A DNA stretch of 64,000 bases from Escherichia coli. GTDB taxonomy: Bacteria; Pseudomonadota; Gammaproteobacteria; Enterobacterales; Enterobacteriaceae. Made by a program: the position numbers. Position 1 is the first letter of the stretch. Every line of letters begins with the position of its first letter. The stretch lies in the NCBI RefSeq assembly GCF_003991155.1, contig NZ_CP031293.1; one strand, given 5' to 3'. This document shows positions 54,001 through 57,000 of the stretch, in pieces.

Positions 54001-57000
54001 TTACCGATTGGCGATATCGCCGCTCACGCCGCGCGACCTGAGCAAGTTATTGGCCTGCATTTCTTCAGTCCGGTGGAAAAAATGCCGCTGGTGGAGATTA
54101 TTCCTCATGCGAGTACATCGGCGCAAACCATCGCCACCACGGTAAAACTGGCGAAAAAACAGGGCAAAACGCCAATTGTCGTGCGTGACAAAGCCGGGTT
54201 TTACGTCAATCGCATCTTAGCGCCTTACATCAATGAAGCTATCCGCATGTTGACCGAAGGCGAGCGTATTGAGCATATCGATGCCGCGCTGGTGAAATTT
54301 GGTTTTCCGGTAGGCCCAATCCAACTTTTGGATGAGGTAGGAATCGACACCGGGACTAAAATTATTCCTGTACTGGAAGCCGCTTATGGAGAACGTTTTA
54401 GCGCGCCTGCAAATGTTGTTTCTTCAATTTTGAACGACGATCGCAAAGGCAGAAAAAATGGTCGGGGTTTCTATCTTTATGGTCAGAAAGGGCGTAAAAG
54501 CAAAAAACAGGTCGATCCCGCCATTTACCCGCTCATTGGCGCACAAGGGCAGGGGCGACTCTCCGCACCGCAGGTTGCTGAACGGTGTGTGATGTTGATG
54601 CTGAATGAAGCAGTACGTTGTCTGGACGAGCAGGTTATCCGTAGCGTACGTGACGGGGATATTGGCGCGGTATTTGGCATTGGTTTTCCGCCATTTCTCG
54701 GTGGACCGTTCCGCTATATCGATTCTCTCGGCGCAGGCGAAGTGGTTGCAATAATGCAACGACTGGCCACGCAGTATGGTTCCCGTTTTACCCCTTGCGA
54801 GCGTTTAGTCGAGATGAGCAAGCGTGGGGAAAGTTTTTGGAAAACAACTGCAACTGACCTGCAATAAGAAGGTCAAAGCTATATGAATCCGCGCTGAATG
54901 GCGGAGTGTTGCTCAAAATGTAAACGCATATTGACTATACTTACGCCATTGAGGTAAAAAACAGCGTTTCATTCGGTGAATGGATAAGGCACAATGCCGG
55001 CCACCGTTTTCTTTCTCTGGTTTCAGATGAAAGAAAACGGGCGAATCTGGTTAACAAAAGCGGTGCAATATGCAAGTTTTTATCATGCGTCACGGCGACG
55101 CAGCCCTCGATGCCGCCAGTGATTCGGTTCGTCCTCTGACTACTAACGGTTGTGACGAATCTCGCCTGATGGCGAACTGGCTGAAAGGTCAAAAAGTGGA
55201 AATCGAACGCGTTCTGGTGAGCCCGTTCCTGCGAGCCGAGCAAACACTTGAAGAAGTAGGGGATTGTCTGAACCTGCCTTCCAGTGCAGAAGTTCTGCCG
55301 GAGTTAACACCCTGCGGCGATGTTGGTCTGGTCAGTGCCTATTTGCAGGCGTTGACCAATGAAGGTGTTGCTTCGGTACTGGTAATCTCCCACTTACCCT
55401 TAGTCGGGTATCTGGTTGCCGAGTTATGTCCGGGCGAAACGCCGCCTATGTTTACCACGTCAGCGATTGCCAGCGTAACGCTTGATGAAAGCGGAAAAGG
55501 CCAATTCAACTGGCAAATGAGCCCTTGTAATTTGAAGATGGCAAAAGCAATTTAAGCAATCAATGCCCGGTTACGTGCGCGTACACCGGGCAGTTTCTCC
55601 GTCATACAATCATCCTTTTTCTTGTCTAAATGTTGTTAATATTTAACAACTCTCGATAGTTATTATATTTTCCCATTATTGAATCCCGTAATAAAATAAA
55701 GAAGATAATGGTTTTGTGTCTTGAATATATATTTATTGATTTAATTAATATTAAATTTTAGCAATAAATGATGGTAAGGTCATTATAATTTTTTTTAGTG
55801 TGCTTTATAAGCAATTCATTTTTGTTGATTATAATAGTTTGTTTTTTTGTTGATAATTCGCATGTTTTTTTGTTGGAAAGTGGTGAAAGTATTTTGTAGA
55901 TGTATTAATTAATAAAATCTACATAAAGTGTTTAAGTATTACTAAATTGAGTTTTTTTATAGATAAGACCAACATACAGACACACCAGAGAATACTTGTT
56001 TACATTCTATGATTATATTGGAGTGTATATGTTCAATGGCTAACTATAAATATCGGGCATAATATATATTAATTTTATGTCAGGTGTTTATATTATAACT
56101 CTTAATGATTTAAGGACAAATAATGAGTAAGTTTGCCAAAACAGCCATTGCTGCGGCGATGGTCATGGGCGCAGTTGTTTCCAGTTCTGCATTTGCAGCA
56201 GGCAACAACGGTACCGCGCGCTTCTACGGCACCATTGAAGACTCCCCGTGCTCTATCGTTCCAGACGATCACAAACTGGAAGTCGATATGGGTGACATCG
56301 GTGCGGCTAAACTGACCGGCGGTGGCACCACCACACCGAAAGATTTCCAGATCCGTTTACAGGACTGCGTGTTTACCACTGAAACAAGCATGAAGACCAC
56401 GTTCACCGGTACTAACTACGCGGGGCCAGCCAACACGGATAACTATGCGTTATTCAACATTGACACCGGTGTTGCCATGAACCACGTGAGCCTGGTAATC
56501 GGCGATACCCATGGCAAAGGTTATAAAGTGGGCCAAGAAATTGTTCAGCCAATCGTGATGGATGCTTCAACCAGCAAAGGTAAAGACAAGCAAACGCTGA
56601 ACTTTAAAGCCTGGCTGGTGGGTGAAACCGAAGCGCCGGATCTCGGCCAGTTCGAAACCCTGACCACATTCCAGATTACCTATCTCTGATGTGACAACCC
56701 CACAGCGTTCTGCTGTGGGGTTTTTCAACGCGCAACGGATTTACGACTGTTTCACAAACGGATATGTGTATGCCTAATCACTCAAATTTTCGGCTGCGGG
56801 GAATCGCCTGCTATATTGCGCTGGCAATCTCTGGTGGATCAGTCAATGCATGGGCTGATGATTCCATTCAATTTGACTCCCGTTTCCTTGAGTTAAAGGG
56901 TGACACGAAAATTGATCTCGGTAAGTTTTCAAAAAAAGGGTATGTCGACGCGGGTAAATATAATTTACGTGTATTTATAAATAAACAACCCCTTTCTGAT

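What the first reader, a model, noticed from the sequence alone, without database searches (positions are those of the whole stretch)
55601..56122. About 520 bp of AT-rich non-coding DNA upstream of the yfc fimbrial operon
A long gene-free AT-rich leader precedes yfcV, with an attenuator hairpin right after the major subunit gene. This is the usual layout of H-NS-silenced cryptic chaperone-usher operons and may hide regulatory sites.
Basis: partly seen in the sequence, partly recalled or inferred. Interest (0 to 1): 0.2.

Follow-up and report, generated by a model that had tools for sequence, protein, structure and literature searches.

The report
Silenced control region of yfc fimbriae
This AT-rich gap is the control region of the uropathogen-type yfc fimbrial operon, which published data show is bound by the silencing protein H-NS, so it is ordinary apart from a conserved set of hairpins just upstream of the first gene.

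Summary
The sixA-yfcV gap (55556-56122, 567 bp) has 26% GC. It has no open frame over 48 codons and no Rfam match. A conserved hairpin follows yfcV.

The gap is 99.3% identical to that of uropathogenic strain CFT073. Published ChIP-seq lists CFT073 yfcV (c2884) as bound by H-NS and StpA. Overproducing the PapB-family regulator TosR raises its mRNA about 36-fold. The K-12 gap, only about 54% identical, is a published H-NS-bound "promoter island". The H-NS reading is therefore supported and already known.

Binding appears to depend on base composition. The high-affinity H-NS motif, predicted curvature and promoter-like sites are no more frequent than composition predicts.

Two things are new:
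- The gap and operon exist as at least three deeply diverged alleles that begin exactly at the sixA stop codon.
- The last ~145 bp before the ATG hold the only blocks conserved across nine lineages. They pair into three hairpins, and hairpin H2 shows repeated compensatory changes.

This suggests a structured 5' leader, but no transcription start site is mapped. Interest is low.

The parts
55565..55591 (+). sixA terminator-like hairpin (GCCCGGTTAC...GTACACCGGGC). It belongs to the gap but not to its AT-rich part.
   Evidence: Fold -18.8 kcal/mol, z -3.0. Coordinates.
55601..55917 (.). Distal AT-rich stretch. It is not conserved between alleles. I infer that it is a composition-driven binding platform for H-NS/StpA.
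   Evidence: GC 22%. TpA steps 13.4% versus 5.5% for the window. No blastn homology to K-12 between 55551 and 56085. H-NS/StpA binding of the adjacent c2884 in CFT073.
55817..55890 (+). Three imperfect direct repeats of about 23-25 bp, each starting with a T-tract (TTTTTGTTGAT[AT]AT at 55819, 55844 and 55867). T-tract lengths vary by 1 nt between strains.
   Evidence: the repeat finder families D1 and D2. Homopolymer length differences in the alignment of six window-type strains. Function unknown.
55918..55948 (+). Candidate sigma-70 promoter: -35 TCTACA (55918-23), 19-nt spacer, -10 TAAATT (55943-48). The predicted start is near 55955. This is inferred only.
   Evidence: The block is conserved in most lineages, with an 18-nt spacer. 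It matches only 8 of 12 consensus positions and the tool's scan does not report it. No TSS data were available.
55981..56039 (+). Hairpin H1. The basal stem pairs CACACCAGAGAATAC (55981-95) with TGTTCAATGG (56030-39) and encloses a lineage-specific apical hairpin.
   Evidence: The two most conserved blocks are reverse complements of each other. Eight core pairs are invariant in 9 lineages. 88% of cells are paired, against 19-43% when the partner is slid. The covariation score is reached by 9 of 500 shuffles.
56045..56092 (+). Hairpin H2. The stem pairs TATAAATATC (56045-54) with GGTGTTTATA (56083-92), and an upper stem pairs GGCATAA with TTATGTC.
   Evidence: This segment is the MFE hairpin in 10 of 10 lineages, mean z -2.1. 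The sense strand is more stable than the antisense strand in 10 of 10. Pair 56050:56087 is AU in 5 lineages and GC in 4. The same AU-to-GC change is seen inside the window-type family, where GU, AC and AA haplotypes also occur.
56102..56130 (+). Invariant translation-initiation block. A weak AU-rich hairpin H3 pairs 56102-11 with 56118-30, with the Shine-Dalgarno AAGGAC (56112-17) in the loop and the ATG at 56123.
   Evidence: 100% identical in all lineages, including Pseudocitrobacter. It is the only part of the gap that megablast matches in other alleles. The fold is only -2.8 to -4.1 kcal/mol and has no variation that could test pairing.
56123..56689 (+). yfcV-type major fimbrial subunit gene (UPEC allele). 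It is 97% identical at the nucleotide level to CFT073 c2884 and 71% to K-12 yfcV.
56696..56725 (+). Conserved GC-rich hairpin plus U5 between the major subunit gene and the usher gene. It looks like an intrinsic terminator. I infer that it is a partial terminator or a protector of the mRNA 3' end.
   Evidence: In CFT073, TosR overproduction raised yfcV, while most genes of these fimbrial operons, yfc included, were unchanged or below the read cutoff (PMC5956150).

Best explanation
The region is the regulatory region of the uropathogen-type allele of the yfc chaperone-usher fimbrial operon.

Proposed mechanism:
1. The roughly 520 bp of 23% GC DNA recruits the nucleoid proteins H-NS and StpA through its base composition. 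No special nucleation motif or bend is involved. Binding is shown for a near-identical strain at the level of the adjacent gene.
2. The resulting filament keeps a weak sigma-70 promoter silent under laboratory conditions (inferred for this allele).
3. AT-binding anti-silencers such as the PapB-family protein TosR, and probably host cues, relieve the silencing. The effect is shown, but the mechanism is inferred.
4. Transcription most likely starts about 170 nt upstream of the ATG, at a candidate promoter at 55918-55948. It then runs through a conserved leader that folds into three hairpins ending at the ribosome-binding site (inferred from comparative sequence).
5. The conserved GC-rich hairpin after yfcV ends or stabilises most transcripts, so the major subunit message exceeds that of the assembly genes (inferred by analogy with other fimbrial operons).
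For: - Composition: lowest-GC stretch of the 64-kb window, non-coding.
- Identity: 99.3% identical to the CFT073 gap.
- H-NS in CFT073: ChIP-seq lists c2884 as bound by H-NS (occupancy 0.140 in wild type, 0.069 in the hns stpA double mutant) and by StpA. The flanking genes are not listed (PMC9765446).
- Anti-silencing: TosR overproduction raises yfcV by log2 5.2 in CFT073 (PMC5956150).
- K-12 allele: a listed H-NS-bound promoter island (PMC3661553). RpoD and RpoS holoenzymes bind the spacer in vitro and it is marked HNS (PMC3946193; PMC5493296). BolA overexpression induces yfcV (PMC4337573).
- The yfc fimbriae are described as cryptic, and many cryptic chaperone-usher fimbriae are described as H-NS-repressed (PMC3559732).
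- Footprint: conserved blocks occur only in the last ~145 bp across 7-9 lineages.
- Hairpins: H1 and H2 are supported. The post-yfcV hairpin shows covariation.
Against: - The ChIP value is gene-level, modest, and drops only by half in the double mutant. StpA is still called 'bound' in the stpA-deleted double mutant, so part of the signal is background.
- I found no hns-mutant expression data for this allele.
- The high-affinity H-NS motif is not enriched.
- Predicted curvature is unremarkable. That calculation used wedge parameters recalled from memory.
- Promoter-like sites number 7, against 5.0 +/- 2.3 expected from composition.
- No transcription start is mapped. The only published K-12 start assigned to yfcV lies 642 nt upstream, inside the sixA terminator (PMC3415461).
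- The candidate promoter matches only 8 of 12 consensus positions and has a 19-nt spacer in this allele.
- Folding z-scores of single hairpins are modest (-0.4 to -4.9).
Confidence: 0.78

Rival explanations
1. The conserved blocks are DNA sites for one or more proteins, such as an activator or repressor binding dyad-symmetric half-sites, rather than RNA hairpins. The promoter would then lie close to the gene, with a -10 at the invariant TATATT (56089-94) and a leader of about 22 nt.
For: TTATATT is invariant in all lineages and is a 5-of-6 match to the -10 consensus, with the key A2 and T6. The core arms of H1 never vary, so they cannot distinguish DNA function from RNA function. Part of block A, AAGAATAT, resembles half of an RcsAB box; that resemblance is from my memory and was not tested.
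Against: The spacer between the H1 arms varies from 34 to 43 nt, which is awkward for a dimeric protein. H2 stems differ in sequence between lineages yet stay paired. They contain G-U pairs that make the sense strand more stable in 10 of 10 lineages. Simple patterns find no CRP, IHF or Lrp consensus. The -35 position for this -10 is poor in every allele.
Confidence: 0.3
2. The gap is only a 'promoter island'. Its base composition generates many weak, bidirectional, abortive promoters that trap RNA polymerase together with H-NS, and it has no specific regulatory architecture.
For: The K-12 counterpart is one of the 78 listed promoter islands. In the window, 5 of the 7 promoter-like matches are antisense, including two 10-of-12 matches.
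Against: The number of promoter-like sites is what the composition predicts. The 145 bp nearest the ATG carry specific conserved blocks while the rest has diverged to about 54% identity. This view is compatible with the best explanation for the distal two thirds of the gap.
Confidence: 0.3
3. The gap is a phase-variation switch, either a fim-type invertible element or a pap-type Dam/Lrp methylation switch.
For: Many fimbrial operons are phase-variable. The window itself carries the ipuA/ipuB invertases next to the adhesin gene upaE. T-tract lengths vary between strains.
Against: There is no GATC anywhere in 55500-56200. No recombinase gene is adjacent. The best inverted repeats are AT-rich and only 71-81% complementary. 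In 1,226 genomes with full-length matches the gap is found as a single co-linear piece, with no sign of an inverted form.
Confidence: 0.03
4. The gap hides an unannotated small protein gene or a stand-alone small RNA. One candidate is a ~145-nt RNA running from about 55955 to the U-rich tract after H2.
For: H1 and H2 followed by a U-rich stretch resemble the layout of a small RNA. There is a 33-codon GTG ORF at 55798-55899.
Against: No Rfam match. The small ORF spans T-tracts whose length differs by 1 nt between strains, which would shift the frame. The base of H2 is AU-rich, which is unlike an efficient intrinsic terminator. The conserved sequence continues without a break into the ribosome-binding site and the start codon of yfcV.
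Confidence: 0.07

Closest known systems
H-NS-bound yfcV/sixA spacer of E. coli K-12 (promoter island 2453647_489; genomic SELEX RpoD/RpoS/H-NS spacer)
   Same: Same chromosomal position between sixA and yfcV. Same operon, same AT-rich gene-free character, and the same invariant 45 bp before the ATG. The same three-hairpin layout is predicted.
   Different: It is a different allele: 680 bp versus 567 bp and only about 54% identical. The in-vitro promoter proposed for K-12 (TTGAAA-17-TATAGT, 383 nt upstream of the ATG) has no counterpart in the window sequence. In K-12 the usher gene yfcU is a pseudogene, whereas here it is intact (884 codons).
c2884 (yfcV) upstream region of uropathogenic E. 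coli CFT073
   Same: 99.3% identical over the gap, so the published H-NS/StpA ChIP-seq and TosR RNA-seq data carry over directly.
   Different: There are four differences. One falls at H2 pair 56050:56087, where the CFT073 reference has an A-A mismatch. This may be a reference error, since the ChIP-seq authors report more than 350 discrepancies in that record. The adhesin gene and the DNA downstream of the operon also differ.
Other H-NS-silenced cryptic chaperone-usher operons of E. coli (yad, sfm, ecp/mat, fim regulatory regions)
   Same: Long AT-rich upstream regions listed as H-NS-bound promoter islands. For yad in CFT073, silencing by H-NS and relief by host cues have been shown (PMC13245861).
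   Different: yfc has no adjacent regulator gene and no invertible element. Derepression in an hns mutant has not been shown for the UPEC yfc allele in the papers I could read.
Stem-loops between the major subunit gene and downstream genes in pap- and fim-type operons
   Same: A conserved GC-rich hairpin lies directly after the major subunit gene, the arrangement associated with excess major-subunit mRNA. This link rests on my own knowledge of pap and fim; differential processing within fimbrial loci is also mentioned in PMC13245861.
   Different: Neither termination nor stabilisation was tested here. The U-tract after the stem is weak or absent in several lineages.

Membership tests
H-NS/StpA-silenced AT-rich regulatory region | AT content far above the genome average over several hundred bp | tested here: met
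   23.4% GC against 47.6% for the window. It is the lowest 522-bp stretch in 64 kb.
H-NS/StpA-silenced AT-rich regulatory region | H-NS occupancy in vivo | tested here: met
   By look-up of published data, not by my own experiment. CFT073 (99.3% identical gap) lists c2884 as H-NS- and StpA-bound (PMC9765446 Dataset S1E). The value is gene-level and modest. The K-12 allele is bound in ChIP-chip data sets.
H-NS/StpA-silenced AT-rich regulatory region | Derepression when hns (and stpA) are deleted | not testable with these tools
   I found no expression data for this allele in an hns mutant. Repression of cryptic K-12 chaperone-usher fimbriae by H-NS is cited in PMC3559732. TosR overproduction induces yfcV, which fits anti-silencing but does not prove it.
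H-NS/StpA-silenced AT-rich regulatory region | High-affinity nucleation motif (TCGATAAATT-like) or intrinsic curvature; typical features, not obligatory ones | tested here: not met
   The motif has 0 hits at one mismatch or fewer and 1 hit at two or fewer, no more than Markov simulations give. Maximum predicted curvature is 20.9 degrees per turn, against 20.6 +/- 2.6 in simulations. The curvature parameters were recalled from memory.
Promoter island (Panyukov and Ozoline) | At least 8 PlatProm-predicted start points per 100 bp over at least 300 bp, with low transcript output | tested here: inconclusive
   PlatProm was not available. A simple consensus scan finds 7 sites in 567 bp, against 5.0 +/- 2.3 in shuffles. 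The K-12 allele is on the published list; this allele has not been evaluated.
Phase-variable fimbrial switch | Invertible segment flanked by inverted repeats with a nearby recombinase, or paired GATC sites for Dam/Lrp | tested here: not met
   No GATC. Only weak AT-rich inverted repeats. No recombinase gene next to the operon.
Intrinsic-terminator-like hairpin after the major subunit gene | GC-rich stem followed by a U-tract, conserved with compensatory change | tested here: met
   11-bp stem plus U5, -22 kcal/mol, z -3.9. Nine pairs are kept in 8 lineages, with one compensatory and two wobble changes. Termination activity itself cannot be tested here.
Structured cis-regulatory 5' leader RNA | Secondary structure conserved with covariation on the sense strand | tested here: met
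   H2 forms a hairpin in 10 of 10 lineages, with sense-strand bias in 10 of 10. Pair 84-133 is AU in 5 lineages and GC in 4. H1 has 88% of cells paired, and 9 of 500 shuffles reach its covariation score. The evidence is moderate because many pairs are invariant and some lineages are related.
Structured cis-regulatory 5' leader RNA | The region is transcribed as part of the mRNA, with the start upstream of the structure | not testable with these tools
   No start-site data exist for this allele. The K-12 data sets I could reach gave only a start 642 nt upstream. Other data sets were not held or were truncated.
Structured cis-regulatory 5' leader RNA | Match to a described RNA family | tested here: not met
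   An Rfam 15 E-value search of 55300-57000 gave only two chance-level hits.

The most novel reading that the evidence does not exclude
The last ~145 nt before yfcV encode an undescribed, conserved, structured 5' leader RNA. It has two long hairpins, H1 and H2, followed by an invariant ribosome-binding module. It has been kept across at least nine lineages of Escherichia and Pseudocitrobacter whose surrounding non-coding DNA has diverged almost to randomness. It would control stability, premature termination or translation of the fimbrial major-subunit message, on top of H-NS silencing.
Probability: 0.4. Interest if true: 0.4.

Novelty: already known. Interest (0 to 1): 0.22.

Why it matters
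yfcV is widely used as a PCR marker for uropathogenic E. coli, and Yfc is one of the core fimbriae of the species. Its natural inducing signal is not known.

The result confirms that the UPEC allele has the same silenced, AT-rich control region as the K-12 allele, which places it among ordinary H-NS-controlled adhesin loci.

Two points have practical value:
- The K-12 and UPEC control regions are different alleles, about 54% identical, so promoter data from K-12 cannot simply be transferred.
- The short conserved segment (55918-56130) marks where to look for the promoter, the leader structure and any specific regulator.

Tried and rejected
- High-affinity H-NS motif scan: not enriched.
- Curvature prediction with my own wedge-model script: not exceptional in the window or in three other alleles.
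- Promoter-like site density: explained by composition.
- Rfam search: nothing.
- Small ORFs: none conserved. The 33-codon ORF is broken by T-tract length changes.
- GATC, ops, IHF, CRP and Lrp patterns: none found.
- Inverted repeats suitable for an invertible switch: only weak AT-rich pairs.
- Proximal -10 at TATATT (56089-94): first favoured, then demoted, because this sequence is the 3' arm of hairpin H2, which shows compensatory change.
- CsrA binding: considered because a GGA motif recurs in the H1 apical region and in the H3 loop. Dropped because the upstream GGA sits in stems, the spacing is about 95 nt, and no paper links CsrA to yfcV.
- Start-site data: Singh 2014 has no held supplement. 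Thomason 2015 is not held. The Ettwiller 2016 file is truncated. Kim 2012 gave only a K-12 start in the sixA terminator.
- A full-text search for 'c2884' returned only unrelated papers.
- Variation within the allele family is too low (98% mean column identity) to show purifying selection on particular blocks.
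Full report
**1. What is there**

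The window is E. coli DNA. It is 100% identical over the queried stretch to strain 2016C-3878. Its gene order is fadI, fadJ, sixA, then a seven-gene chaperone-usher operon of the yfc type.

sixA ends at 55555 and the major subunit gene starts at 56123, so the gene-free gap is 567 bp. Its first 45 bp hold a terminator-like hairpin for sixA at 55565-55591.

That stretch has 23.4% GC, against 47.6% for the window, and is the lowest-GC 522-bp stretch in all 64 kb. Every frame is full of stop codons, and the longest open run is 48 codons. Rfam finds nothing.

Directly after the subunit gene lies an 11-bp GC-rich stem with a 5-nt loop and five U's (56696-56725). Its energy is -22 kcal/mol, z -3.9.

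**2. Which allele it is**

The gap is 99.3% identical to the gap upstream of c2884 (yfcV) in the uropathogenic strain CFT073. It is only about 54% identical to the K-12 gap (680 bp) and about 55% to a third type, from strain P15-25 (658 bp). By contrast, sixA is 96-98% identical among the four strains compared.

Against K-12, blastn homology is 96% up to position 55551, four bases before the sixA stop codon. It then disappears, and resumes at 72% from 56085 onward.

Among 5,426 complete E. coli genomes:
- 1,226 carry the window type.
- 3,072 carry the K-12 type.
- 634 carry the third type.

The gap therefore belongs to an allelic cassette that starts exactly at the end of sixA. Promoter data obtained in K-12 cannot be transferred by sequence identity.

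**3. Is it H-NS-silenced?**

I could not measure occupancy, but published data bear on the question.

For CFT073:
- The ChIP-seq study of Hustmyer et al. (PMC9765446) lists c2884 among H-NS-bound genes. Occupancy is 0.140 in wild type, 0.132 without StpA, 0.083 without H-NS and 0.069 without both.
- The same study lists c2884 among StpA-bound genes.
- The neighbouring yfc genes and sixA are not listed. This fits a local patch centred on the gap.
- The value is modest and per gene, and some signal remains in the double mutant.
- Overproducing TosR, a PapB-family protein thought to counter H-NS, raises yfcV mRNA by log2 5.2. Most genes of these fimbrial operons, yfc included, were unchanged or below the read cutoff (PMC5956150).

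For K-12:
- The yfcV/sixA spacer is one of 78 'promoter islands', and it is marked as H-NS-bound in two data sets (PMC3661553).
- It binds RpoD and RpoS holoenzymes in vitro and is marked HNS (PMC3946193; PMC5493296).
- It is induced by BolA overexpression (PMC4337573).

A review describes the yfc genes as functional but cryptic, and describes many cryptic chaperone-usher fimbriae as H-NS-repressed (PMC3559732).

**4. What in the sequence recruits H-NS?**

Only composition stands out.
- TpA steps make up 13.4% of dinucleotides, against 5.5% in the window.
- The high-affinity motif TCGATAAATT has no hit at one mismatch or fewer and one hit at two or fewer. Simulated sequences of the same composition give as many.
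- A wedge-model curvature calculation, using parameters recalled from memory, gives a maximum of 20.9 degrees per turn. Simulations give 20.6 +/- 2.6, and many places in the window score higher.
- Promoter-like sites number 7, against 5.0 +/- 2.3 in shuffles, and five of them are antisense.
- There is no GATC, no ops element, and no IHF, CRP or Lrp consensus.
- There is no plausible invertible segment.

Three T-tract-led direct repeats of about 23-25 bp lie at 55819-55876. Their T-tracts vary by one base between strains. I have no function for them.

**5. Comparative footprint**

I collected upstream regions from other Escherichia species and from Pseudocitrobacter. A metagenome scan with the invariant ribosome-binding block added more. 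Together they gave 11 clusters at 90% identity, of which nine were usable lineages. Pairwise identity among the first eight regions compared was mostly 53-71%.

Conservation is confined to the last 200 bp or so before the ATG:
- a weakly conserved block that reads as a mediocre sigma-70 promoter: TCTACA at 55918-23 and TAAATT at 55943-48, with a 19-nt spacer here and 18 nt in other lineages;
- ACCAACAT at 55968-75;
- CACACCAGAGAATAC at 55981-95;
- TGTTCAATGG at 56030-39;
- TATAAATATC at 56045-54;
- GGTGTTTATA at 56083-92;
- a 45-nt stretch through the Shine-Dalgarno sequence and start codon that is identical in every lineage.

**6. The conserved blocks pair with each other**

RNAalifold on seven lineages, and then on nine, gives the same three helices. 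Each lineage folded on its own adopts the same layout.

*H1.* It joins 55981-95 to 56030-39 around a lineage-specific apical hairpin.
- Its eight core pairs never vary, so they say nothing about pairing.
- The outer pairs vary in a way that keeps pairing.
- 88% of cells are paired, against 19-43% when the partner is slid.
- Nine of 500 shuffles reach the observed covariation score.

*H2.* It joins 56045-54 to 56083-92.
- The segment is a single hairpin in 10 of 10 lineages, with mean z -2.1.
- The sense strand is more stable than the antisense strand in 10 of 10, by 4.5 kcal/mol on average. This is expected if G-U pairs matter.
- Stem sequences differ between lineages but stay complementary.
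- The pair corresponding to A56050:T56087 is AU in five lineages and GC in four.
- The same AU-to-GC change occurs inside the window-type family, where GU, AC and AA haplotypes also exist.

*H3.* It is weak (-3 to -4 kcal/mol) and invariant, with the Shine-Dalgarno sequence in its loop. It cannot be tested by comparison.

This pattern favours a structured 5' leader over protein-binding sites. It requires a transcription start upstream of about 55981, and I could not verify one. The only published start assigned to yfcV, in K-12, lies 642 nt upstream inside the sixA terminator, with 36 reads (PMC3415461). Other start-site data sets were not available.

**7. The hairpin after yfcV**

The hairpin is present in eight lineages, with nine conserved pairs. 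It shows one compensatory UA-to-CG change (in the window's own allele), two wobble changes and a free loop. The U-tract behind it is variable.

I read it as a partial terminator or a protector of the mRNA 3' end that favours the major-subunit message. The TosR RNA-seq pattern is consistent with this, but the function is inferred.

**8. Verdict**

This is an ordinary H-NS/StpA-bound control region of a cryptic fimbrial operon, and it is already described.

The deep allelic divergence that starts at the sixA stop codon, and the conserved three-hairpin segment, are modest additions. The hairpin segment is the only part that could turn out to be new. I give it about a 40% chance of being a functional leader RNA.

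Noticed in passing
window 62603-64000 (- strand): A two-gene Septu anti-phage system lies directly downstream of the yfc adhesin gene. It consists of PtuB (207 aa, PADLOC E 2e-89) and PtuA, an ATPase that runs off the window end (E 2e-116). K-12 and CFT073 lack it, and CFT073 keeps only a short remnant of homology (62213-62827).
   Followed up: partly
window 47622-48869 (- strand): An AT-rich 415-codon ORF lies between mlaA and fadL. It is annotated as hypothetical, is rich in Asn, Asp, Ile and Lys, and has no Pfam or PADLOC match. In CFT073, mlaA and fadL are adjacent, so the ORF is absent there.
   Followed up: partly
window 55551-62600 compared with L004 (K-12) and L003: The whole yfc operon and its control region exist as at least three deeply diverged alleles. 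The gap is about 54% identical between alleles, yfcV 65-72% at the nucleotide level and 73-74% at the protein level. The alleles sit at a fixed locus, and the divergence starts within 4 bp of the sixA stop codon. Counts in 5,426 genomes are 1,226, 3,072 and 634.
   Followed up: partly
hits H26-H30 (K-12-type gap, e.g. NZ_CP068041.1 3339661-3341117): Several E. coli genomes carry an IS1 element inserted inside the K-12-type sixA-yfcV gap. The match is split into two pieces spanning 1,457 bp.
   Followed up: no
window 61721-62213 compared with L005 (CFT073): The tip adhesin gene (StfH/YfcO family) loses detectable nucleotide homology to CFT073 over about 500 bp, although the rest of the operon is 95% identical. 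This suggests adhesin-domain replacement.
   Followed up: no
L027, L037, L127 (metagenome contigs): Three natural variants keep the invariant ribosome-binding block but have unrelated sequence in place of the H1 5' arm or the whole leader. They are natural disruptions of the proposed structure and could be informative.
   Followed up: no
L005 (CFT073 reference), position equivalent to window 56087: The CFT073 reference and two metagenome contigs have an A where the window has a T. This gives an A-A mismatch in hairpin H2. It may be real or a reference error; the ChIP-seq authors report more than 350 discrepancies in NC_004431.1.
   Followed up: no
window 33884-35316: The second lowest-GC stretch of the window (25-31% GC) coincides with the ipuA/ipuB tyrosine invertase region next to the phase-variable autotransporter gene upaE. 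This is a known switch locus.
   Followed up: no
L004 (K-12), 642 nt upstream of yfcV: The only published start site assigned to K-12 yfcV (Kim et al. 2012, 36 reads) lies in the 3' arm of the sixA terminator hairpin, downstream of a TTCCAA-16-TAGATT match. It may be a processing product or a read-through product.
   Followed up: no
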